Of a stretch of DNA of 64,000 nucleotides, positions 5,182-44,885 are shown in pieces. Each line of letters starts with the position of its first letter. Position 1 is the first letter of the stretch. Both the position numbers and the translations under genes were made by a program. The stretch lies in NCBI RefSeq assembly GCF_050320075.1, contig NZ_CP190018.1. One strand, 5' to 3'. This DNA comes from Escherichia coli. GTDB taxonomy: Bacteria; Pseudomonadota; Gammaproteobacteria; Enterobacterales; Enterobacteriaceae. A model generated the notes under the pieces. It did no database searches, was not told the DNA's origin, and saw only the letters and a list, made by a program, of their open reading frames with translations.

Positions 5182-5208
5182 GACTTCAGGAAGATATTAC
5201 GGAGATAT

Positions 5209-5230
5209 CAGGCTCTGTGATCAGAGCCTG
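5209..5230. terminator. Perfect 9-bp stem / 4-nt loop hairpin between convergent GH1 gene and marB (likely bidirectional terminator)
   Basis: CAGGCTCTG-TGAT-CAGAGCCTG read directly from sequence; lies between stop codons at 5181 (+) and 5238 (-). Confidence 0.5.
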
Positions 5231-6537: not shown

Positions 6538-7203
6538 ATGTTAGATTTATTTAAAGCAATTGGCCTGGGGCTGGTGGTGTTACTACCGTTAGCTAACCCA
6601 TTAACAACTGTCGCGTTATTTCTTGGCCTGGCAGGCAACATGAACAGTGCCGAACGTAATCGTCAGTCGTTGATGGCCTCGGTGTACGTCTTTGCCATCA
6701 TGATGGTGGCGTATTACGCCGGGCAACTGGTGATGGATACATTTGGCATTTCGATTCCCGGTCTGCGAATTGCAGGCGGCTTAATCGTCGCGTTTATCGG
6801 TTTTCGGATGCTTTTTCCGCAACAGAAAGCGATTGATTCACCGGAGGCGAAAAGCAAGTCGGAAGAGCTGGAAGATGAACCCAGCGCCAATATTGCTTTT
6901 GTACCACTGGCAATGCCAAGTACCGCCGGTCCGGGAACCATTGCAATGATTATTAGCTCGGCGTCCACAGTGCGTCAGAGTTCAACCTTCGCTGATTGGG
7001 TGCTGATGGTTGCGCCGCCGCTGATCTTTTTCCTGGTGGCGGTTATTTTGTGGGGAAGTCTACGCAGCTCTGGCGCAATTATGCGGCTGGTGGGTAAGGG
7101 GGGCATTGAAGCGATCTCCCGTCTGATGGGATTCCTGCTGGTATGTATGGGGGTGCAGTTTATTATTAACGGCATCCTGGAAATCATTAAAACGTACCAC
7201 TAA
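6538..7203 (+). CDS. marC: Inner-membrane protein MarC (UPF0056 family)
   Basis: 221-aa polytopic membrane protein; divergent from marRAB. Confidence 0.88.
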
Positions 7204-35232: not shown

Positions 35233-36585
35233 TTATGGTTTGAGTTTATACTTCTGACCATTAATGATTTTTTTGATTAACTCGAATGCAGCGGGGGAAT
35301 ATTTATGAACACCTTCCTTCCCCGTTTTCACTAGCACATGATAGTTATTATCTGAGGATTTAATATTAAAACCAGTTTCCTTGTGTATTCTTTCTAATAC
35401 TTTATGGACGTAATGCCAAGATCCCATATCAAGTAATTTTGCAAGTTCAGATATGGTGTAGGGATAGCTTGCGTTAAGTGCTTGCCCATTATTTAACTCT
35501 GCAATTCCATAAAGTTTCGCTAACACGTTATCTTGCTCAGCAATGTTCTTAAGCATTTCAAAATCATATGGAAGCTCTTGTTTTACAAGAGATTGAGAGG
35601 CAAATGTATAGGTTCTGGCTAATAGCGCCCTGACTAATTTTGGGTTAACACTGATTTCTGGCGTATTTGACGATAGGGCATCATAAATCCAACCGAAATC
35701 ATTGGCATAGATCACTTTGATTCGGATGCTTTTATTTTCACCAACACCAATCAAAATCTCTTTCTGGTGTGAACCTGTACCTTCACATTCTGGACTAAAG
35801 GAAACCAAATAAATATTCGGAATCAAAGCGTTATTTGGCGCAATTATCTCATCAATATCAGACAGGATGGCTTTAATATTCTCATCATTAATACTATAGC
35901 CAATGAAGAACAACGGATGCTCGACGAAATATGTTAATAGTTTTGCACTGATATACTTTTTACGCTTATAAAACTCAACATAGTCTTCATTTGTTATAAT
36001 GATGCTTTCTGGTTCTTTACTACTGCCGTGAATCTTCATGATTTCACCGTATGTAGTATAGTTAACAGTCACAACATTATGGCCAACTATCGGTTGGTAG
36101 TTATCAAATATCTTTTCAAGCAGATCGTCATAGTTTGTTGTAATAATGGCATGGGGCCTTACTTTTTTTAACTTTTCAATTTCTTCAGTGTACTCCATTG
36201 CTGAAAAATCAACCGAGTCTGAAAGGTTATTCAACAATGTTGCAATCTCATGCTTGATATATATATCTTTAGAGCTTTTTCCATTGAAATACTGTTCAGG
36301 ATAACGAGATGTCCCCACATCCCAAGCCCACTCAGCGTATGACTCAGAAAAATCACTTGCTATCATTGGTTTATTGTCATTTCTTGTTTGACTGTAGTAA
36401 CCATACGGGCGAGTGATTAATGGGCAAGTTTCAGCGAGATACTTTAACAGGTTTTCCCAATCAGGAGCTTTCAAGTAGCGTTGAGATACCCCTGCACCCA
36501 TAAAGAGAATTGGCTGTACCTGTAAACCTTCAAGACATGATTTGATATCTTCAATTATTTCTGTCTGATATTCAGAGAAGTCCAT
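35233..36585 (-). CDS. SIR2-like (SIR2_2 / ThsA-DSR-type) domain protein with uncharacterised C-terminal domain; candidate NAD+-depleting anti-phage effector
   Basis: 450 aa; SIR2_2 hallmarks PILFMGAGVS (res 25-34), IITTNYDDLLE (res 147-157, putative catalytic Asn151), KIHGS (His186), EHPLFFIGYSINDE (res 222-235); C-terminal about 190 aa with no recognised family; gene is markedly AT-rich. Confidence 0.75.
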   Translation of the reverse strand: MDFSEYQTEIIEDIKSCLEGLQVQPILFMGAGVSQRYLKAPDWENLLKYLAETCPLITRPYGYYSQTRNDNKPMIASDFSESYAEWAWDVGTSRYPEQYFNGKSSKDIYIKHEIATLLNNLSDSVDFSAMEYTEEIEKLKKVRPHAIITTNYDDLLEKIFDNYQPIVGHNVVTVNYTTYGEIMKIHGSSKEPESIIITNEDYVEFYKRKKYISAKLLTYFVEHPLFFIGYSINDENIKAILSDIDEIIAPNNALIPNIYLVSFSPECEGTGSHQKEILIGVGENKSIRIKVIYANDFGWIYDALSSNTPEISVNPKLVRALLARTYTFASQSLVKQELPYDFEMLKNIAEQDNVLAKLYGIAELNNGQALNASYPYTISELAKLLDMGSWHYVHKVLERIHKETGFNIKSSDNNYHVLVKTGKEGVHKYSPAAFELIKKIINGQKYKLKP

Positions 36586-36799
36586 ACTTTAGCCTTTAGG
36601 ATGTGAGATGCTGGAGTAGTAAATCGCCGCGGAGCGGTTCGGGGTTCTGTGACACCCGAATTTTACCTCGGTTTCCTTTGTATATAATATCATTGAAGTT
36701 ATTTGCATTTCTCAGAAATCTTCTCTGGCTTTGATTGCTATAGCCGAAAGATAGCGCACACTTCGCCGTTGGTCAGTTAGTACGAGGTTTCCGCCAAGT

Positions 36800-37835
36800 T
36801 CACCTTTTACCAAAGATGGCCTCAGAGCTTCCCTGAAGCTTTATCATGGTTTCAAGTAGGTCATCTTCGTTCAGTGAGCGCTGAGATTTGTTGATGCTAG
36901 GCGCGTGCCGTCTGCGGGAAGGCTCATCACCAGAACAAGGTAACGATAGTGAGCGATTATTGTCCCGTTTTCTCTGGACCTGACGGGCAACATCCAACAC
37001 ATGGCCAAGTCTCTTGTTATCTACAATGGCGACGGGCTCAACCTCAGAAAGCCGGTCATAGGTGGAGTAGGGTAGCAGCACGCCATTTAGTCGCAGCTCC
37101 TTATGTCCGTCAGGATAATGCCAGACATCAATATACTTGCCGATGGCTCTTCGACTGTACTCGTTGTCCTCAATCAGATAGAGCATTTTATCGTATTGTA
37201 CAGTCAGATTTTTTGATACCCGGCGAGGCTCTCGCCAGGTAAATTCTGCATCAAGGTCATCGTCTAATGCCAGCGGCCGGTACGCGTTAAAATCATGCAA
37301 GGGTTCTTTGGCAAAGCGCCGGTTATAATCCGCCATGTATTCTTCTGCAAATGCATTGGCCGCTTCTATTGTACAGATCCCCTTAAGCCTGAGCTCCTTA
37401 ACGAGTCGGTCCTGAAGTGTCAAATGAGCACGTTCAACGCGGCCTTTTGCCTGGCTGGTTTCAGCACACAAAGGAGTAATATTAAGGCAGCGCATGGCCC
37501 TGGCAAACTGGGTATCGCCGAGACCGGTGGTGGCGTGCTTATTATTGACTCTGAATACGCTGGCTTTATCGCTGTAGAGGATCATCGGTTTACCGTATTC
37601 AGTGGTGGTCGCAGCCATCAATTTGTATCAGCTCGCCAGTACAAGGACGCCGGTAACGAGGCTGATGAATTTTCGGTGCGCGTTGTCTGCGGGGGATCCA
37701 GAGTCCCGCGTTTATCATGAGACGTCGGATGGTTTCCTTTCCAAGGACCAGACCGTGAACTTCCTCCAGCTTTTCCCGCGCCAGCGTGGGGCCAAAATCA
37801 CGGTAGTGCTCCCGGATTATACTGAGTGCCTCCAA
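36800..37835 (-). mobile_element. Remnant IS element: DDE (integrase-core) transposase gene disrupted by a frameshift
   Basis: Two overlapping minus-strand ORFs (37599..37835 N-terminal HTH part ending …IQIDGCDHH; 36800..37621 catalytic part …ILYSDKASVF…AETSQAKGRVERAHLTLQ); family not confidently assigned (IS481/ISNCY-like); IS ends not identified. Confidence 0.6.
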
Positions 37836-38198
37836 TGAGCCACAAATAGAACATTAGCATTGAGCCTCTATAATTTTGGTGCGCATAATGTATATTATGT
37901 TAAATGTGGTGGGTTTGTTCTTAAGTTCATGTGTTCCGCTCTTTCAGTAGCTTAACTGATGAATCAGTCAGCAGCTCTTGCCGTGCAAGCTACGCGGCGG
38001 TTCGTACCAGATTGGCCACCTCCATCTCCTGGTTCGCTTTCCCCTCCCCCCGGTAAACCTCACCCAACGTTAATTAATGATGTCAGTATGTGGGCGCTAT
38101 CCTTGTATGTAAAATCCACTGACGATTACGCCCATCTGTGAAAAAAAACTCACAATGCCATTCGATGCATCTCCATACTGAACGAGGCGTTATCGTCT

Positions 38199-39098
38199 TT
38201 ATCGCCCCGTAGTGGATATCAGAAAATCAATCAGGGCCTTCACTCTTTTCGTTTTACCCGCGTTTTTGGGGTAATAGAGATACACTGGCGGGTAGGTTTT
38301 CCAGTATCTCTCCATCACCGGAATAAAGCGCTCCCTGTCCGGCTGTAACTGCCAGACAGGCTCAAACAAGCGCCCAATTCCCAGCCCGTTACGGATCCCG
38401 TCTGCCATAACGTCAATATCGTTGCTGATTAACTGCCCCGGCATCTCAACGGTCAACTGCTCACCGCGATCGTTCAGGAGCAGCGGAAGGATGCGGTTGT
38501 TGGTGATAAAACGGTAACCAATCAGCTGGTGATGACAGAGATCTGCCGGCACTTCAGGCGTTCCATGTCGGGAGAGATACGCTGAGGATGCATATAATCC
38601 TTCACGAAACGGTTTCATTAACGGTCGGGCCACCACCCCTCCCTCAAGAATATCGCCAAAACGGATCCCCAGATCAAAACGCTCTTTGATGATATTCACG
38701 GTACCGTCGTAGACCGAAATTTCTAACTGTATACCCGGATATTGCTGACAGAATTCTGCCATCGCAGGCTTAAGAATTAACAGGTAGGCAAAACGCGAGA
38801 GCGTAATTCGCACCATCCCAGAGGGCTCCTGATGCTGGTCGCGAATGCTTTCAAGTGAGTTTTCCAGCGACTCCACCGCCGCAGCGGTCTGTTCCAGCAA
38901 TAATTGACCGGTTTCCGTCAGCTCTATACGGCGGGTCGTACGCACAAAAAGCGGATGGCCGATATACTCTTCCAGCAGCTTTAGTGCATTGCTGACGGAG
39001 GGAGGCGTAATTTCCAGTTTCCTTGCGGCTGCCGAAATATTGCCCTCCCGCGCAATGCTCTGGAAGATGCGAATCTGGTTATAAAGAGCGTTATTCAT
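38199..39098 (-). CDS. LysR-family transcriptional regulator
   Basis: 299-aa protein; N-terminal HTH (IFQSIAREGNISAAARKLEITPPSVSNALKLLE); divergent from the oxidoreductase cluster. Confidence 0.85.
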   Translation of the reverse strand: MNNALYNQIRIFQSIAREGNISAAARKLEITPPSVSNALKLLEEYIGHPLFVRTTRRIELTETGQLLLEQTAAAVESLENSLESIRDQHQEPSGMVRITLSRFAYLLILKPAMAEFCQQYPGIQLEISVYDGTVNIIKERFDLGIRFGDILEGGVVARPLMKPFREGLYASSAYLSRHGTPEVPADLCHHQLIGYRFITNNRILPLLLNDRGEQLTVEMPGQLISNDIDVMADGIRNGLGIGRLFEPVWQLQPDRERFIPVMERYWKTYPPVYLYYPKNAGKTKRVKALIDFLISTTGR

Positions 39099-39233
39099 AA
39101 TGTTTTCCTAAGCAATTCTCGCCTGATTATTAAGTACAGTCTAAAAATGCTTAAGTCAATGACCCTCTAATCTTCCTGAAATACGCCTCTTATACTTTAG
39201 TCTCTTTCTACTACGACCTGAGTTCAGGAGACT

Positions 39234-39545
39234 ATGATGCGAATTTTATGTCTGGATATCCCTGCCCCTGGAGCATCGCTGGAGAAATATGCTCCGCACC
39301 TCAACGCTGAAGCGCTGCACGCCTGGGGATTGTATAAATCAGGCTTCATCCGCGACATCTACTTCCGTCAGGACAGACCTGGCGTCGCTATTTTTCTTGA
39401 ATGTGACTCTGTCGATGAAGCGATGAACGTTATGGCCGAATTCCCGTTGGCAAAAGCAGGCTTACTAAGCTTCGAGTGTATACCGCTTGGCTCCTTTATT
39501 AACTGGGAAAATCTCTTCGCCGATGAATTTAAAAATAAAGAGTGA
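39234..39545 (+). CDS. Muconolactone isomerase-like small protein (Dabb/YciI-like fold)
   Basis: 103-aa protein with pattern similar to CatC-type muconolactone delta-isomerases; family assignment tentative. Confidence 0.45.
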   Translation: MMRILCLDIPAPGASLEKYAPHLNAEALHAWGLYKSGFIRDIYFRQDRPGVAIFLECDSVDEAMNVMAEFPLAKAGLLSFECIPLGSFINWENLFADEFKNKE

Positions 39546-39553
39546 GGACCGAT

Positions 39554-40243
39554 ATGAAACCTGCATATAAACCAGTGCTATGTGTCGTTTCCAGCCATCC
39601 GATTAAAGGCGCATCCGGTGTACCAACCGGTTTTTTCCTGGCCGAGCTGACTCATCCGCTGAAAGTACTGGAAGATGCCGGAATAAAAACAACAATAGCC
39701 AGTATTCGCGGGGGGCAGCCACCGGTGGATGGATTTGACCTCAGCGACCCTGTTAACGCCTGGTACTGGAACGAAACCGATTTTCAGCAGCGCCTGGCAA
39801 CAACACCTGCGTTATCCGAGCTGAAAGGTGCCGATTACAGCGCAGTTTTCTTTGCAGGTGGTCATGGGACCATGTGGGATTTCCGTGATAATCAGGATGC
39901 CCAGCGTATTATCCGCGAAGTGTATGAAAGTGATGGGATTGTCTCAGCCGTCTGCCACGGGCCTGCGGCATTGGTTGACGCAAAACTCAGTAGCGGCGAA
40001 TACCTGATAAAAGGGAAAAATGTGGCGGCCTTTACCAACAAGGAAGAGGAAGAAGTTCACACAACAGATGTGGTTCCCTTCCTGCTTGAAACCGCACTTC
40101 GCGAGCATGGTGCGCTTTATCATGAAGCTCCAAACTGGTCTGAAAACGTGGTTACCGACGATCGCCTTATCACGGGGCAGAATCCCGCTTCAGCACATGG
40201 GGTTGGTGTGGCGCTGTTAAATGCACTCCGCCGGACAGCTTAA
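39554..40243 (+). CDS. DJ-1/PfpI-family (class I glutamine amidotransferase-like) protein
   Basis: About 229-aa protein with nucleophile-elbow context (SAVCHGPAAL); ORF track 39542..40243, ATG 39554 more likely. Confidence 0.7.
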   Translation: MKPAYKPVLCVVSSHPIKGASGVPTGFFLAELTHPLKVLEDAGIKTTIASIRGGQPPVDGFDLSDPVNAWYWNETDFQQRLATTPALSELKGADYSAVFFAGGHGTMWDFRDNQDAQRIIREVYESDGIVSAVCHGPAALVDAKLSSGEYLIKGKNVAAFTNKEEEEVHTTDVVPFLLETALREHGALYHEAPNWSENVVTDDRLITGQNPASAHGVGVALLNALRRTA

Positions 40244-40316
40244 TTAATTCATCGTTACTCACCTTACTTGGCCGGTTTAAGTCAGCCACGATCCGGCCTT
40301 TTTTCAGGAGCTGAAT

Positions 40317-41264
40317 ATGAAAACACTACCTCCAGTCGCACTAGGTACATGGTCCTGGGGCACAGGCTTTGCCGGCGGCGACACCGTCTTTGGTAATCAT
40401 CTTTCTGATACTCAGATGGCAGAAGTGTTCACTGCGGCCATGAGTAAGGGCCTCAATCTCTGGGATACCGCAGCAGTATATGGTATGGGGAGTTCCGAGA
40501 CTGCGCTGGGAGCATTAGTCCGTCAGTTTCCCCGCGAGAACATAATTTTATCCACCAAATTCACGCCGCAGATTGCGGACAAGCAGTCTGCGCAGCCTGT
40601 CAGCGATATGCTTGAGGCCAGCCTTGGGCGCCTGGGCGTGGACGCGATTGATATCTACTGGATCCATAATCCCCTCGACGTCGAAAAATGGACACCAGGA
40701 CTGATCCCACTTTTACAAAGCGGTAAGGTAAAACGCGTAGGTGTTTCCAACCACAATCTGGCACAAATCAGACGCGCCAATGAAATCCTTAACGCTTCCG
40801 GTTATTCCCTCAGTGCAGTACAAAATCACTACAGCCTGCTCTATCGCGCTTCTGAAGAGGCCGGGATCCTTGATTATTGCCGACAAAATAACATCACGTT
40901 CTTTGCTTACATGGTCCTGGAGCAAGGCGCGCTCAGTGGTCGTTATGATTCAAATCATCCCATGCCTGCCGGGAGTGGCCGGGCCGAAAGTTATAACGCA
41001 GTACTGCCGCAGATAGAAAGACTAACCGCCGCCATGAAAAAAATGGGAGCCGAAAGGAATGCCAGCGTGGCACAGATAGCCATCGCATGGGCTATTGCGA
41101 AAGGTACCCTTCCCCTCGTTGGTGCGACTAAAGTCCATCACGTTCTGGACGCCGCCTGCGCTTCAGACATCCAGTTACGCGATGAGGAAATCATCCTGCT
41201 GGAACAACTCGCCGCAGAGACCAGAGTGGATACACGAGGCGCCTGGGAAAAACCGATGGTGTAA
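40317..41264 (+). CDS. Aldo/keto reductase family oxidoreductase
   Basis: 315-aa protein with AKR features (LWDTAAVYG, VGVSNH). Confidence 0.8.
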   Translation: MKTLPPVALGTWSWGTGFAGGDTVFGNHLSDTQMAEVFTAAMSKGLNLWDTAAVYGMGSSETALGALVRQFPRENIILSTKFTPQIADKQSAQPVSDMLEASLGRLGVDAIDIYWIHNPLDVEKWTPGLIPLLQSGKVKRVGVSNHNLAQIRRANEILNASGYSLSAVQNHYSLLYRASEEAGILDYCRQNNITFFAYMVLEQGALSGRYDSNHPMPAGSGRAESYNAVLPQIERLTAAMKKMGAERNASVAQIAIAWAIAKGTLPLVGATKVHHVLDAACASDIQLRDEEIILLEQLAAETRVDTRGAWEKPMV

Positions 41265-41366
41265 AGCCCGTCCGGAACAGACTGTCATGAATGACACACA
41301 CGAACGGGCTGTTCCGGGTGATTCTAATCTGTATCACTTTTACTGCTTTGTATGAATGGTGAGAAT

Positions 41367-42044
41367 ATGAAAATCATTTGCCTCGAAGAACATTATCTCG
41401 ACAGCGAGTTAGGGCGAGCGTGTATGCCTGTTGCGCTTGAGCAGGCACCTTTCCTTGGCGACAGGGGGAAAACCGTCGCTGATGGTCATAATCCTGACCG
41501 ACTCCCTGCTTTCCCGCTTTAATAAACTGAATGTGCCACTCTATCTTCATCCCGGGTTACCGCTTAAAAGCGTACAGCAGGCCTACTTCACGGGCTTCAG
41601 CGCAGAGGTCAACGCCAGGCTTTCTATGTTTGCCTGGGGCTGGCATCACGAAGCGGGGATCCATTTGTTGCGGCTGATGTTATCGGGCGCATTTGATAAA
41701 TATCCCAACCTGCAGGTAATCAGTGGCCACTGGGGGGAGATGTTACCCTTCTGGCTCCAGCGTCTTGATGACAGCCTACCACTGGCTGCAACGGGTCTGT
41801 CACGCACGCTAACGAGAACCTTCCAGGAACACGTTTACGTTACCCCGTCATATGCTAACACTGCCGCACTTCCAGTTTATCTACGCGTTAATGGGTGCTG
41901 AAAGGATCCTGTTCTCCGTCGGTTATCCCTATCAGACCCCTGGACGGTGTAAAAACCTTTATAGACAGTCTGCCCGTCAACAAGGCTGAAAAAGAGGCCA
42001 TCGCGTTTCGCAATGCAGAACGTTTACTGGGCATCACGGTTTAG
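41367..42044 (+). pseudogene. Amidohydrolase-2 (ACMSD-like metal-dependent hydrolase) gene remnant with frameshifts
   Basis: N-terminal MKIICLEEHYLD… in one frame, central part (ORF 41431..41901) in another, C-terminal …FSVGYPYQ…NAERLLGITV in a third; total length too short for the family. Confidence 0.55.
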
Positions 42045-42194
42045 TTCACCGTTTCATGATGACTGAGCACATTGTGATCAGCCGACAATTATTAGTTTTT
42101 GCCTAAAAGTGAATGAGCCTTTACTGCTCTAAAAAAATAATGTTGTCACTCTATACTGGATTTAATATTCACCAAAGATGTTTAACTGATTGAA

Positions 42195-42767
42195 ATGAAA
42201 AATATCCTTGTTATTTCAGGTCATCCTGAGCTTACCCATTCCGTCGCCAATGCCACTATTCTTGATGAAGTGGAGACCGCCCTTCCCGATGTTGAGATTC
42301 GTCGTCTGGACAGGCTCTATCCGGATGGCAAATTCAACATCGCGGCGGAGCAGAAAAGCCTGCTCAGGGCCGATGTGATTGTCTGGCAGTTCCCTTTTTC
42401 CTGGTATGGGCTGCCAGGATTAATGAAAAAATGGCTGGACGAGGTCTTTGTTCACGGCTTCGCGCATGGCTCAACGGCGAAACTGGGCGGTAAAAAGCTG
42501 ATCCTCTCCTTTACAACGGGAGCGCCAGAGGAGCTCTATACCGTCGACAGTTTCTTTGGCCATACCATTGAAGAGTATCTTATTCCGTTCGAAACCACGG
42601 CAAGGCTGTGCAATCTTGAGCTGCTGGCGCCGGTTTATACCTGCGGTATCAGCTATGCCGACCGGGATGCCGACAAAATCGCGCAGCAAAAAACGCTTGC
42701 CCGGGAACACGCTTCAAGGCTTGTCGAACTGCTCAATTCCGTCGTGAATAATCCAGAGGGAGAATAA
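42195..42767 (+). CDS. Flavodoxin-like NAD(P)H:quinone oxidoreductase (KefF/MdaB/general stress protein 14-like)
   Basis: 190-aa protein; N-terminal MKNILVISGHP flavodoxin-like-fold signature. Confidence 0.7.
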   Translation: MKNILVISGHPELTHSVANATILDEVETALPDVEIRRLDRLYPDGKFNIAAEQKSLLRADVIVWQFPFSWYGLPGLMKKWLDEVFVHGFAHGSTAKLGGKKLILSFTTGAPEELYTVDSFFGHTIEEYLIPFETTARLCNLELLAPVYTCGISYADRDADKIAQQKTLAREHASRLVELLNSVVNNPEGE

Positions 42768-42769
42768 CA

Positions 42770-43789
42770 ATGCAGTATACCCGGCTCGGTAAAAGTGACT
42801 TACTTGTTTCCCGCATCTGCATGGGATGCATGGGGTTTGGCGATCCGTCGACGGGTCAGCATAGCTGGACGCTGGACGAAACAGCAAGCCGCGACATCAT
42901 TCGCTATGGCCTTGAAAAGGGCATCAACTTTTACGATACCGCTATAGCCTACCAGAATGGCTCCAGTGAGCGATACGTTGGCCGGGCATTACGGGAGATG
43001 GCGAAACGCGATGATATCGTCCTGGCCACCAAGTTTCTGCCGCGAACCCCCGCACAAATTGCCGGAGGGATCAGCGGAAAAGAGGCAATCGCTCAATCCC
43101 TTGACCAGAGCCTGAAGAATCTGGGGATGGACTATATCGACCTCTACATCTACCACATCTGGGATTACAACACGCCCATTATCGACGTGCTTGAAGCGTT
43201 ACATACCGCTGTTACTGCTGGCAAAGTACGATCTGTTGGTATTTCAAACTGCTATGCCTGGCAGCTGGCGAAGGCGAACGCCCTTGCTGAACGCGAAGGG
43301 CTGATGCCCTTTGTTTCCGTACAGAGCCACTACAATCTAATTATGCGCGAAGATGAACGGGAGCTCTTCGGCCTGTGCACTGAGGATAATATCGCAATGA
43401 CCCCCTATAGCGCGCTGGCCAGCGGCCGCCTCTCTCGTAAAGAAGGCTATACACGGCGAGCCACAGAGGATGACTATGCGCGTGGAAAATATGACAGCAC
43501 GGCTGAACAGGATCGCAGCATTATTGAGCGTGTAGCCGAACTGGCCGAACGCCATCTGGTGTCAATGACGGAAATATCTCTCGCTTGGCTGCTGACAAAA
43601 GTCACATCACCTGTCGTAGGGGCTACAAAAAAAGCTCATGTCGATGGCGCGGTAAACGCAGTAAATCTTCAACTAAGTCCGGAGGAAATTCAGTTTCTGG
43701 AAGAAACCTACCAGCCGCATGTTCTGACGGGGGTCATGGCGCAAAATACGCCGCAAACGAAAGATGTTAAGCAGGTCTGGATGCGATAG
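42770..43789 (+). CDS. Aldo/keto reductase family oxidoreductase
   Basis: 339-aa AKR (GINFYDTAIAYQNG, VGISN); start immediately follows the upstream stop. Confidence 0.8.
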   Translation: MQYTRLGKSDLLVSRICMGCMGFGDPSTGQHSWTLDETASRDIIRYGLEKGINFYDTAIAYQNGSSERYVGRALREMAKRDDIVLATKFLPRTPAQIAGGISGKEAIAQSLDQSLKNLGMDYIDLYIYHIWDYNTPIIDVLEALHTAVTAGKVRSVGISNCYAWQLAKANALAEREGLMPFVSVQSHYNLIMREDERELFGLCTEDNIAMTPYSALASGRLSRKEGYTRRATEDDYARGKYDSTAEQDRSIIERVAELAERHLVSMTEISLAWLLTKVTSPVVGATKKAHVDGAVNAVNLQLSPEEIQFLEETYQPHVLTGVMAQNTPQTKDVKQVWMR

Positions 43790-43904
43790 CCCTTATTCAC
43801 TTTTCCTCCTCTCGTCTTTGAGAGCGCCAGTAGCGGTCGGTTACGTTCTTACCAGCACCAGTTGATCGAACGTCTTAAACAGTAACGTCAGTAAAAAGAT
43901 CATC

Positions 43905-44630
43905 GTGAAAAAGACTTTTATGCTTTTAATTTGCATGCAAATAAGCAGCCCTGTCTTTGCAACAAAACCGGACGCGCCGAATAAGCCGGAGATGAATATC
44001 TTCGAGCTCGGCATCAGACCCGATCGGGACAACGACTTTGCAGACGTGGCCAGACAGACGATTTCCGCTTCGGTTGATCATGAAGCAGGTACACTGGCGA
44101 TGTATGCCCTGCAACGCAGCGACAATTCAGGTCAGGCATTCATGTTCGAACTCTATGAAAATGAGCGTGCTTATCGCAAACATCTCAATGCCGCCCCATA
44201 CAAAGCATTCGCTGCTCGTGCACCTGACATTATTGACAGGAAGAAGAAAATTACCCTGGAGCCACAGTTTCTGGGCGACAAACACATCATACCGAATGAA
44301 CGAACTATCAATAATCTGGTGATCGTCGAAGTAAAGCCTGAATTTCAGAGCGAATTTAGAAACATCGTCCTTCCTGAAATGGTCGAGTCGCTCAAAGTAG
44401 AGAAAGGCGTGTTAGCCATGTATGCCGGTACAGATTCAGAGACTCCAAAACGCTGGTATTTCTATGAGATTTACGCCAGTGAGGAGGATTATCAACTGCA
44501 CCGACAAACGCTGCACTTCCTGGATTACCTCAGGCAAACGGCGCATATGAGCGCCAGGAAGGACGCAATCCCGGTAAAACCGGTATTTCTTCGTAACAAA
44601 GGCGGAATCAAACAGGAGCCGCAACGTTGA
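43905..44630 (+). CDS. Putative secreted protein with tandem ABM (antibiotic-biosynthesis-monooxygenase-like) domains
   Basis: 241-aa ORF with N-terminal hydrophobic signal-like segment and two ABM-like halves (AMYALQR…FELYENERAY; AMYAGT…YEIYASEEDY); start uncertain. Confidence 0.5.
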   Translation: MKKTFMLLICMQISSPVFATKPDAPNKPEMNIFELGIRPDRDNDFADVARQTISASVDHEAGTLAMYALQRSDNSGQAFMFELYENERAYRKHLNAAPYKAFAARAPDIIDRKKKITLEPQFLGDKHIIPNERTINNLVIVEVKPEFQSEFRNIVLPEMVESLKVEKGVLAMYAGTDSETPKRWYFYEIYASEEDYQLHRQTLHFLDYLRQTAHMSARKDAIPVKPVFLRNKGGIKQEPQR

Positions 44631-44645
44631 CCAGTAAGGATTAAC

Positions 44646-44885
44646 ATGAAAAGCGTACTTGCAGCAGCGGCTATGTCGCTTGTTATTTCTGATTTTGCTA
44701 ATGCTGAGGAAACAAGAGGTAAAGCTATGATGAAAATAGAACCGTCAGCGATTTCGGAAGCTGATATTCGTTCCGTCTCACCGGCTCTCGCGCGCTTTGG
44801 TCGCGAAGCTATTACTGAAGATCTGTGGACACGCGACGCCCTCTCACCGAGGGATCGTAGAGTAGTTAAACTTACTGTTATTTAA
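44646..44885 (+). pseudogene. Truncated carboxymuconolactone decarboxylase (AhpD-like) family fragment
   Basis: 79-aa ORF with CMD-like N-terminal motif (…ALSPRDRRVV…) ending abruptly; sits at the island/fimbrial junction. Confidence 0.4.

What the first reader, a model, noticed from the sequence alone, without database searches (positions are those of the whole stretch)
35233..36585. Orphan SIR2-like (ThsA/DSR-type) protein with an unassigned C-terminal domain: candidate single-gene anti-phage NADase
The 450-aa product has all the SIR2_2 signature blocks seen in defence sirtuins (Thoeris ThsA, DSR1/DSR2, SIR2-HerA, SPARSA): the Gly-rich NAD-binding loop PILFMGAGVS, IITTNYDDLLE with the expected catalytic Asn (residue 151), KIHGS with His186, and the FFIGYS block. 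Residues from about 260 to 450 match none of the known partner domains (no SLOG, STAND NTPase, APAZ or TIR); the last 70 residues loosely resemble a winged-helix fold. No ThsB, HerA, Argonaute or other partner ORF is present on either strand in the flanks. The gene is conspicuously AT-rich, is bracketed by the hipBA toxin-antitoxin module and a decayed IS element, and occupies a variable position where K-12 carries only pseudogene remnants. A SIR2 effector of this size fused to an unknown sensor-like domain and acting alone would be an undescribed architecture. Alternatively it may be a decayed two-gene system whose partner was lost at the adjacent IS.
Basis: partly seen in the sequence, partly recalled or inferred. 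Interest (0 to 1): 0.85.

Follow-up and report, generated by a model that had tools for sequence, protein, structure and literature searches.

The report
Lone SIR2 gene riding a dif-targeting IS
This is an intact, single-gene SIR2-type NAD-consuming enzyme fused to a small DNA-binding-type winged helix, very probably an untested anti-phage defence gene, and it is the cargo of an insertion sequence that landed next to the chromosome's dif site and whose relatives carry other defence genes in the same slot.

Summary
ORF 35233-36585 (-) encodes a 450-aa protein with a defence-type SIR2_2 domain whose Asn151 and His186 align with DSR2 N133 and H171. It is AT-rich and has no partner gene.

The N-terminal ~350 residues match PADLOC candidate PDC-S25 (E 2e-82), so the SIR2 module is already catalogued as a single-gene candidate. 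I found no experimental test of it. The unassigned C-terminus is a helical linker plus a MerR/excisionase-class winged helix, seen only in this family. The ~520-aa PDC-S25 relatives carry an unrelated C-terminus.

Full-length homologues (~450 aa) occur from Enterobacterales to Firmicutes and archaea. In 90 loci no neighbour family recurs in more than 8, so the "lost partner" idea is not supported.

New here: the gene is the passenger of a decayed IS1202-family ("ISNCY") transporter IS (35111-37872), inserted 5 bp from chromosomal dif (37878-37905). Related copies on hundreds of plasmids hold Shedu, a ThsB-like TIR pair or a PDC-S32-like gene in the same slot.

Most likely it is a standalone abortive-infection NADase, with the winged helix as sensor or regulator. 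That function is inferred, not shown. I rate it a new variant of a known kind, of moderate interest.

The parts
35233..36585 (-). SIR2-wHTH gene, 450 codons plus stop. RefSeq WP_001551127.1, annotated 'SIR2 family NAD-dependent protein deacylase'.
   Evidence: ORF list. 100% identical copy annotated in E. coli YZLc1-3.
35644..36585 (-). Residues 1-314: SIR2_2 Rossmann-type domain with the Gly-rich NAD loop (P25, G30, G32, R36) and the predicted catalytic N151 and H186.
   Evidence: Pfam PF13289 E 3e-25. Invariant columns. HMM alignment puts N151 on DSR2 N133 and H186 on DSR2 H171. Foldseek top hits are KomC, ThsA and DSR2 at E about 1e-9. AF2 pLDDT is mostly above 85.
35491..35643 (-). Residues 315-365: helical linker. 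It is conserved in the ~520-aa relatives up to about residue 350-365. Model confidence is low for residues 330-370.
   Evidence: AF2 model. Extent of the alignments to the longer relatives.
35236..35490 (-). Residues 366-450: MerR/excisionase-class winged helix (helix 366-373, helix 378-384, helix 390-404, beta-hairpin wing 416-429, helix 431-441). Near-invariant N413, Y415, H416, Y429 and S430 sit in or next to the wing.
35168..35206 (-). Strong hairpin followed by a U-run, 27 nt after the SIR2 stop: the likely intrinsic terminator. It lies in the IS backbone, not in the swapped cassette.
   Evidence: RNA fold -33.6 kcal/mol, z -5.25, 0 of 200 shuffles fold as well. The segment 35106-35231 is 91-98% identical in plasmid copies that carry other passengers.
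35232..36626 (.). Exchangeable passenger cassette (SIR2 ORF plus 41 bp upstream). Outside these limits the element is 97-98% identical to plasmid copies carrying an unrelated gene.
   Evidence: blastn of the window against L021.
35111..37872 (-). Decayed IS1202-family ('ISNCY') transporter IS, 2762 bp, with imperfect terminal inverted repeats and SIR2 as its passenger.
   Evidence: The empty site in NZ_CM187539.1 joins window 35108 to 37877. Inverted repeat 35118-35152 / 37831-37865. The related intact transposase matches NF033594 at 483 bits. tIS behaviour is described in PMC10132070 and bioRxiv 10.1101/2022.12.17.520857.
36800..37835 (-). Transposase remnant. It is frameshifted, lacks the N-terminus, and has 134-bp and 307-bp deletions relative to plasmid copies.
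   Evidence: ORFs 36800-37621 and 37599-37835. RefSeq pseudogene note. blastn gaps.
35106..35110 (.). ATGTT, the left copy of a probable 5-bp target-site duplication. The right copy, ATTTT, is at 37873-37877. The empty site reads ATGCT.
   Evidence: Sequences read directly. Only 4 of 5 positions match, so this is tentative.
37878..37905 (+). Chromosomal dif site GGTGCGCATAATGTATATTATGTTAAAT (XerC arm, 6-bp spacer, XerD arm), 5 bp from the transposase-proximal IS end.
   Evidence: Exact single match, 0 expected by chance. The same 28-mer lies between hipA and yneL in K-12 and in the empty-site strain. The sequence is used as E. coli dif in PMC3025954.
33445..35033 (+). hipB and hipA, core neighbours of dif. 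They are context only and not part of the element.
   Evidence: RefSeq annotation of the identical region. Present in K-12.

Best explanation
The gene encodes a self-contained, horizontally mobile SIR2-family NAD+-consuming effector that most likely works as a one-protein abortive-infection defence. The N-terminal SIR2_2 domain (catalytic N151 and H186) would hydrolyse NAD+ once switched on. The C-terminal MerR/excisionase-class winged helix, joined by a flexible helical linker, would be the input module. The most likely input is nucleic acid, or a DNA-bound phage component, that appears during infection. Binding would release or assemble the SIR2 domains, as happens in other SIR2 defences. 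In this genome the gene was delivered as the passenger of an IS1202-family transporter IS. That IS inserted 5 bp from the XerC arm of the chromosomal dif site and then lost its transposase. The gene is now fixed there in about 4% of complete E. coli genomes. Shown: domain identity, catalytic-residue conservation, the wHTH fold, absence of a conserved partner, purifying selection, passenger status, dif targeting, and defence genes in the same slot of sister elements. Inferred: NADase rather than transferase chemistry, phage protection, and what the winged helix binds.
Confidence: 0.6

Rival explanations
1. It is a defence NADase, but the winged helix is not the sensor. Instead it autoregulates transcription or tethers the protein to the nucleoid, and infection is sensed by the SIR2/linker region or through loss of a host factor.
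For: MerR- and Xis-class wHTH domains are classic transcription and recombination-directionality regulators. Many defence operons are controlled by wHTH repressors (established knowledge). A short conserved block, GGGTGTCACA..ACCC, lies upstream of the gene in three loci.
Against: The conserved upstream block lies in the IS backbone and is shared with elements carrying other passengers, so it is not specific to this protein. The wHTH is found only fused to this SIR2 family and never as a separate regulator of other systems. The recognition helix is variable while the wing is near-invariant, which does not look like operator-specific binding.
Confidence: 0.2
2. The enzyme is an NAD+-dependent transferase or deacylase directed to DNA or DNA-bound proteins by the winged helix. 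An example would be ADP-ribosylation of phage or plasmid DNA-associated targets. It would not be a bulk NAD+ depleter.
For: SIR2-fold enzymes include ADP-ribosyltransferases and deacylases (noted in PMC9503650). A fused DNA-binding fold would suit a chromatin-targeted modifier. RefSeq names it a protein deacylase.
Against: It matches SIR2_2, not the sirtuin family PF02146. It lacks the zinc module. All near relatives with known activity are NADases. The RefSeq name is a generic family label; the only NCBIfam hits are a 23.7-bit match to Dsr2 and a 15.6-bit match to MamR, both far below cut-off, so no curated model supports the name.
Confidence: 0.1
3. The gene serves the mobile element rather than the host. 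It would act as an addiction or exclusion module that stabilises the transporter IS or its carrier, or excludes competing plasmids and elements that use Xer sites.
For: It is a passenger of an IS that targets dif and plasmid Xer sites. Sister elements are on 689 plasmids, mostly conjugative. Family members sit in a Pf prophage and on a Rep3 plasmid.
Against: There is no antitoxin-like partner. In E. coli the transposase has decayed while the passenger stays intact and over 99% conserved in 218 genomes, so it is kept without the element being active. The alternative passengers are recognised anti-phage proteins.
Confidence: 0.07
4. It is the remnant of a two-gene system whose partner was destroyed by the adjacent IS.
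For: The gene abuts a decayed transposase. Some SIR2 defences need partners (HerA, pAgo, ThsB, LmuB).
Against: The empty-site comparison shows that the IS and SIR2 arrived together as one 2.76-kb unit between hipA and dif. Homologues in 90 loci share no partner. The full 450-aa architecture is conserved across phyla.
Confidence: 0.03

Closest known systems
PADLOC phage-defence candidate PDC-S25 (models PDLC04968 and PDLC04967); also PHROG 2695
   Same: Single-gene candidate. The SIR2 module plus linker matches end to end over query residues 10-354 (E 2e-82) with the same catalytic motifs. It is found in prophages and defence islands.
   Different: The models are 517-531 positions long and only the first ~350 are matched. 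The ~170-aa C-terminus of those relatives is unrelated to the wHTH here (hhalign probability 0.2%) and has no Pfam match. PDC-S25 is itself only a prediction; I found no test of it.
DSR2 and DSR1 (defence-associated sirtuins, single-gene SIR2 NADases)
   Same: A one-protein system with an N-terminal SIR2 NADase and a C-terminal sensor. The catalytic Asn and His align. These are the best PDB sequence and fold matches.
   Different: DSR proteins are 1000-1200 aa with large helical sensor domains; DSR2 binds the phage tail tube protein. Here the protein is 450 aa with an 85-residue wHTH. NCBIfam Dsr2 scores 23.7 bits against a cut-off of 1400.
Thoeris ThsA (SIR2-SLOG effector)
   Same: The SIR2 domain aligns over residues 131-314 (E 3e-16). 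Size is similar at about 470 aa.
   Different: There is no SLOG or other nucleotide-sensing domain and no ThsB partner. The C-terminus is a wHTH.
Lactococcal AbiH (single-gene Sir2-like abortive infection protein)
   Same: A precedent for a small standalone Sir2-like Abi protein (PMC13064643).
   Different: No AbiH model appears among the PADLOC hits at E up to 1 (I did not check that the library holds an AbiH model). AbiH has no reported wHTH.
tISKpn21, tISKpn65 and tISRel10: transporter ISs of the IS1202 family that target dif and pdif sites
   Same: A transposase of about 465 aa (NF033594), imperfect terminal repeats, insertion 5 bp from the XerC arm with the transposase-proximal end facing it, and one extra passenger ORF.
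   Different: The published passengers were reported as of unknown function. Here, and in sister copies, the passengers are recognisable defence genes or candidates, exchanged precisely within a conserved backbone. The window copy has a decayed transposase.

Membership tests
SIR2_2 (PF13289) defence-type sirtuin domain | Significant match to the family profile | tested here: met
   E 3.2e-25, residues 146-266. All 27 longer relatives also match.
SIR2_2 (PF13289) defence-type sirtuin domain | Catalytic Asn and His equivalent to DSR2 N133 and H171, plus the Gly-rich NAD loop | tested here: met
   N151, H186, G30 and G32 are invariant in 66 sequences. The profile alignment to DSR2 chains places N151 on N133 and H186 on H171.
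SIR2_2 (PF13289) defence-type sirtuin domain | NAD+ hydrolase activity | not testable with these tools
   Needs a biochemical assay.
PADLOC PDC-S25 | Match to the PDC-S25 HMM | tested here: met
   PDLC04968 E 2e-82; PDLC04967 E 1.6e-35.
PADLOC PDC-S25 | Full-length coverage of the model, including its C-terminal ~170 positions | tested here: not met
   Only profile positions 10-349 of 517 are matched. The C-terminus of the ~520-aa relatives is not homologous to residues 336-450 (hhalign probability 0.2%).
PADLOC PDC-S25 | Occurs as a single gene without obligate neighbours | tested here: met
   Neighbour clustering over 90 loci.
Thoeris (ThsA/ThsB) | SLOG (or Macro/TM) signal-binding domain on ThsA | tested here: not met
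   ThsA models match only residues 129-251. The C-terminus folds as a wHTH.
Thoeris (ThsA/ThsB) | Adjacent TIR-domain ThsB gene | tested here: not met
   None in the window flanks. No recurrent neighbour in 90 loci.
DSR2 | NCBIfam equivalog score above cut-off and a sensor region of about 1000 aa | tested here: not met
   23.7 bits against a cut-off of 1400; the protein is 450 aa.
SIR2-HerA, SPARSA, Lamassu-Sir2, Avs5, Kongming | Obligate partner or fused module (HerA; pAgo with APAZ; LmuB SMC; STAND NTPase; KomA/KomB) | tested here: not met
   Only the SIR2 part of these models is matched. No such ORF is in the flanks or recurs among homologues.
Canonical sirtuin protein deacylase (CobB-type, PF02146) | PF02146 match and a Cys4 zinc-binding module | tested here: not met
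   No PF02146 hit. The protein has only three Cys (17, 54, 267), none in CxxC pairs.
MerR/excisionase-class winged helix | Helix-turn-helix followed by a beta-hairpin wing that superposes on known members | tested here: met
MerR/excisionase-class winged helix | Sequence-family membership (Pfam MerR, HTH_17 and similar) and DNA binding | tested here: inconclusive
   No Pfam match. PDB sequence hits are only weak, E at or above 0.02. DNA binding is not testable here.
IS1202-family transporter IS (ISAba32/ISAjo2 subgroup behaviour) | IS1202/ISNCY-type DDE transposase | tested here: met
   The window remnant is 86% identical in DNA to an intact 465-aa gene that scores 483 bits on NF033594, cut-off 250.
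IS1202-family transporter IS (ISAba32/ISAjo2 subgroup behaviour) | Insertion 5 bp from the XerC arm of a dif or dif-like site, with the transposase-proximal end facing it | tested here: met
   dif at 37878-37905, IS end at 37872. Plasmid copies also abut dif-like sites. Criterion from PMC10132070.
IS1202-family transporter IS (ISAba32/ISAjo2 subgroup behaviour) | 5-bp target-site duplication | tested here: inconclusive
   ATGTT and ATTTT match at 4 of 5 positions. The empty site has ATGCT.

The most novel reading that the evidence does not exclude
Two linked readings remain open. First, this may be the smallest kind of SIR2 immune protein: a single chain in which a MerR/Xis-like winged helix directly senses phage DNA, or a DNA-protein intermediate, and switches on NAD+ destruction with no partner, nucleotide signal or large sensor domain. 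Second, the IS1202-family transporter ISs may be dedicated shuttles. They would deliver interchangeable defence cassettes (SIR2-wHTH, Shedu, a TIR pair, an STM4504/PDC-S32-like gene) to Xer recombination sites on chromosomes and conjugative plasmids. That route of defence-gene spread does not appear in the two IS1202 papers I read or in my literature searches.
Probability: 0.3. Interest if true: 0.7.

Novelty: new variant of a known kind. Interest (0 to 1): 0.5.

Why it matters
If the protein protects against phage, it would be a compact, genetically tractable SIR2 immune protein of 450 aa in one gene, native to E. coli. Its trigger domain is a simple DNA-binding-type fold. That makes it a good model for how SIR2 NADases are held off and switched on. 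The scan found relatives in 262 species' genomes, archaea included.

The carrier may matter more. A family of Xer-site-targeting insertion sequences with a precise cassette slot holds different defence genes on hundreds of conjugative plasmids and next to chromosomal dif. This would explain how single-gene defences move between replicons. It would also assign a function to the 'unknown' passenger ORFs of transporter ISs.

Tried and rejected
- **Conserved 256-aa partner:** V. cholerae and P. aeruginosa each have a 256-aa neighbour, but the two proteins are unrelated.
- **Named family for the C-terminus:** Pfam on the C-terminal alignment gave nothing. The PDB sequence search gave only weak wHTH-like hits, E at or above 0.02. 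NCBIfam gave a sub-threshold MamR hit.
- **The wHTH fused to other effectors:** the word-based profile search returned only fragments of the same protein. AFDB50 Foldseek returned only SIR2-family proteins or fragments. No evidence was found that the domain is a shared sensor module.
- **Phage genomes:** the collection holds only distant N-terminal-module relatives in temperate phages phBC6A51, BK5-T and Javan227, not the full architecture.
- **Promoter and terminator scan:** no convincing sigma-70 promoter was found upstream of the gene (4 sites found against 5.1 expected). The simple terminator scan missed the real hairpin, which RNA folding recovered.
- **Upstream operator footprint:** a shared block exists but belongs to the IS backbone, so it does not bear on autoregulation.
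- **dN/dS:** a ratio could not be computed because synonymous sites are saturated. Only the pN and pS proportions are reported.
- **Literature:** I searched for the accession, PDC-S25, SIR2 with winged helix or HTH, and ISNCY with defence passengers. No study of this protein or of defence cargo in these ISs turned up.

Full report

Yes. The ORF lies at 35233-36585 on the minus strand and encodes 450 aa. GC falls to 0.34-0.40 across it, against about 0.50 on both sides.

Pfam SIR2_2 (PF13289) matches residues 146-266 at E 3e-25. In a 66-member alignment spanning 28-80% identity, these residues are invariant: P25, G30, G32, R36, T149, T150, N151, H186, G187, Y230 and D234.

A profile search of PDB sequences aligns ITTNYD and KIHG with the same blocks in DSR2. 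This puts N151 on DSR2 N133 and H186 on DSR2 H171, the residue mutated in the deposited 'DSR2 H171A' structures.

The flanks hold hipB and hipA on one side and a broken 'ISNCY family transposase' on the other. None of the known SIR2 partner genes is present.

**2. What the protein is**

*N-terminal module.* PADLOC's best hit is the single-gene candidate PDC-S25: PDLC04968 at E 2e-82, query residues 10-354 on profile positions 10-349 of 517. ThsA, LmuA, Dsr1 and Dsr2 models follow, and they match only the SIR2 core. PHROG 2695, of unknown function, matches the same 350 residues. NCBIfam gives only a Dsr2 hit at 23.7 bits against a cut-off of 1400.

*Structure.* An AlphaFold2 model built from the family alignment has pLDDT 85.8 and pTM 0.71. 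It shows three parts:
- a SIR2 domain to about residue 314;
- a helical linker, poorly placed over residues 330-370;
- a compact C-terminal domain of three helices, a beta-hairpin and a final helix.

The whole model matches the SIR2 domains of KomC, ThsA and DSR2 best, at E about 1e-9.

Its near-invariant residues are N413, Y415, H416, Y429 and S430, in or next to the wing. The domain is mildly basic (+4) beside an acidic SIR2 domain (-18). The protein has three cysteines and no zinc module, so it is not a CobB-type deacylase despite its RefSeq name.

**3. How wide the family is, and is the C-terminus special?**

Sequence searches found 764 and 3975 relatives respectively. There are two architectures:
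- proteins of about 450 aa that align end to end with the query, in Proteus, Providencia, Vibrio, Acinetobacter, Pseudomonas, Paenibacillus, cyanobacteria, planctomycetes and haloarchaea;
- proteins of about 515-600 aa that align only to residues 10-350. These correspond to the PDC-S25 and PHROG models.

The C-terminus of the longer group has no Pfam match and is not homologous to the winged helix (hhalign probability 0.2%). The winged helix was found only attached to this SIR2 module, or as fragments of it, by sequence and by fold. So this is one conserved effector-plus-linker with alternative C-terminal modules. The window's protein is the wHTH variant.

Against two 73-75%-identical alleles, non-synonymous difference is 0.12-0.13 while synonymous sites are saturated at 0.81-0.88. 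The gene is therefore under purifying selection. The winged helix changes about twice as fast as the SIR2 domain.

**4. Does it act alone?**

I read nine contexts of full-length homologues:
- a V. cholerae mobile element;
- the end of a P. aeruginosa Pf prophage;
- an A. baumannii prophage moron slot;
- a Thioalkalivibrio island with an SNF2 helicase, an Eco57I-type enzyme, Mrr and toxin-antitoxin genes;
- integrase islets;
- a Rep3 plasmid;
- other loci without a shared neighbour.

I then fetched 79 more loci from a one-genome-per-species collection; 262 species have a relative. I clustered every ORF of at least 70 aa within 5 kb of the gene in 90 loci. The commonest neighbour family occurs in 8 loci and is an IS3 transposase. 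Next come a dehydrogenase (7), an ABC transporter (5) and an integrase (5). Every same-strand ORF within 120 bp downstream is a singleton. The 'lost partner' alternative is therefore not supported.

**5. The surroundings: a transporter IS at dif**

*Insertion boundaries.* In E. coli the gene is in 220 of 5426 complete genomes. It is always chromosomal and single-copy, and 218 copies are at least 99% identical. A strain with hipA next to the LysR gene gives the empty site, which joins window 35108 to 37877.

*The element.* The inserted 2.76 kb has imperfect terminal inverted repeats. It contains, on one strand, the transposase remnant and then SIR2. Five bases beyond its transposase-proximal end lies the 28-bp E. 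coli dif site, at 37878-37905. The same site lies between hipA and yneL in K-12 and is cited as dif in PMC3025954.

*Match to published behaviour.* IS1202-family elements of the ISAjo2/ISAba32 type insert 5 bp from the XerC arm in a fixed orientation. A few of them, the 'transporter ISs' tISKpn21, tISKpn65 and tISRel10, carry one extra ORF of unknown function (PMC10132070; bioRxiv 10.1101/2022.12.17.520857). The window element behaves the same way. The 5-bp duplication is only 4 of 5 here (ATGTT and ATTTT).

*Decay.* The window's transposase has lost 134 bp and 307 bp relative to plasmid copies and is frameshifted.

**6. The same slot carries other defence genes**

The element's backbone recurs on 689 plasmids, mostly conjugative IncF and IncH types. 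Two backbone segments are 81-98% identical in the five copies I read: the 126 bp after the SIR2 stop, which includes a strong terminator hairpin (z -5.25), and everything from 41 bp upstream of the start codon into the transposase. Between those points the passenger differs:
- an STM4504/CBY_0614 protein, the most common passenger, which hits PADLOC PDC-S32 at 4e-9;
- a Shedu SduA nuclease at 7e-101, later cut by IS1;
- a ThsB-like TIR protein at 2e-48, paired with PDC-M50A at 8e-32;
- three small ORFs.

Three of the plasmid copies (L021, L025 and L026) also abut a dif-like site.

Enterobacterial SIR2 alleles keep the same backbone ends. Pantoea has a transposase remnant plus dif. Yersinia rohdei has a full dif upstream and a partial XerC-arm copy downstream. 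E. coli S43, Citrobacter, Kluyvera and Dryocola carry the module without its transposase inside another shared island.

This association is the strongest contextual argument that the SIR2 gene is a defence gene. I found no paper that describes it.

**7. Mechanism**

The best-supported reading is a standalone abortive-infection NADase, with the winged helix as the input or regulatory module.

- **Shown:** the fold, the catalytic residues, the modular C-terminus, the lack of a partner, selection on the gene, its mobility, and the defence-cargo context.
- **Inferred:** NAD+ hydrolysis, phage protection, and DNA as the ligand.

The rivals are an autoregulatory or tethering role for the winged helix, a DNA-targeted transferase activity, a function serving the mobile element, and a decayed two-gene system. 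They are weighed in their own section. No experimental work on this family was found. PDC-S25 turns up only as a prediction in strain surveys. It was not among the eight PADLOC candidates tested in one study, where four of the eight protected.

**8. Verdict**

The protein is a new C-terminal variant of an already catalogued but untested single-gene SIR2 candidate, so interest in the protein alone is moderate. Its carriage by a dif-targeting transporter IS with an exchangeable defence slot is the less expected result and deserves follow-up.

Noticed in passing
window 37878-37905: The window contains the chromosomal dimer-resolution site dif (exact 28-mer), so it spans the replication terminus region.
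   Followed up: yes
L021, L024, L025, L026 (plasmids NZ_OX442410.1, NZ_CP055053.1, CP110411.1, NZ_MT586602.1) against window 35106-35231 and 36627-37872: Sister IS1202-family transporter ISs share a conserved backbone but hold different passengers in one precisely bounded slot: STM4504/PDC-S32-like, Shedu SduA, a ThsB-like TIR with PDC-M50A, or three small ORFs. The backbone occurs on 689 plasmids. This looks like a cassette-exchange system for defence genes aimed at Xer sites.
   Followed up: partly
L027 (Yersinia rohdei) 5190-5217 and about 7140-7165: The SIR2 module (96% protein identity over the best-matching segment) lies between a full dif site and a partial copy (XerC arm plus 4 nt) in direct orientation, with no transposase. 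This resembles a dif module or a Xer-integrated element rather than a simple IS.
   Followed up: partly
L023 (E. coli S43), L028-L030, L037: A 74%-identical SIR2 allele keeps the IS end and the segment up to the transposase stop, but sits inside a different element shared by E. coli, Citrobacter, Kluyvera and Dryocola. In S43 it is in the ssrA island, beside an integrase, an AAA ATPase and an HNH endonuclease.
   Followed up: partly
window 27793-33261: The 1822-aa ECSE_1600-family autotransporter is an intact ORF here, whereas K-12 has the pseudogene yneO at the same position.
   Followed up: no
window about 38199-47000, compared with K-12 (L020): K-12 lacks about 12 kb present here between dif/yneL and the ydeT fimbrial usher: a LysR regulator, a glutamine amidotransferase-like gene, aldo/keto reductases, a quinol monooxygenase and a fimbrial chaperone. 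So the terminus-proximal side of dif varies independently of the SIR2 element.
   Followed up: no
window 36641-36657: A short block, GGGTGTCACAGAACCCC, upstream of the passenger start is conserved in the S43 and L018 alleles. It lies in the IS backbone and could be a promoter or operator element for whatever passenger is carried.
   Followed up: partly
PDB hits 9r3e and 9r0p: The family profile also detects human FAM118B (E 3e-5), a eukaryotic SIR2-like protein. This hints at a distant link between this bacterial clade and animal SIR2-like proteins.
   Followed up: no
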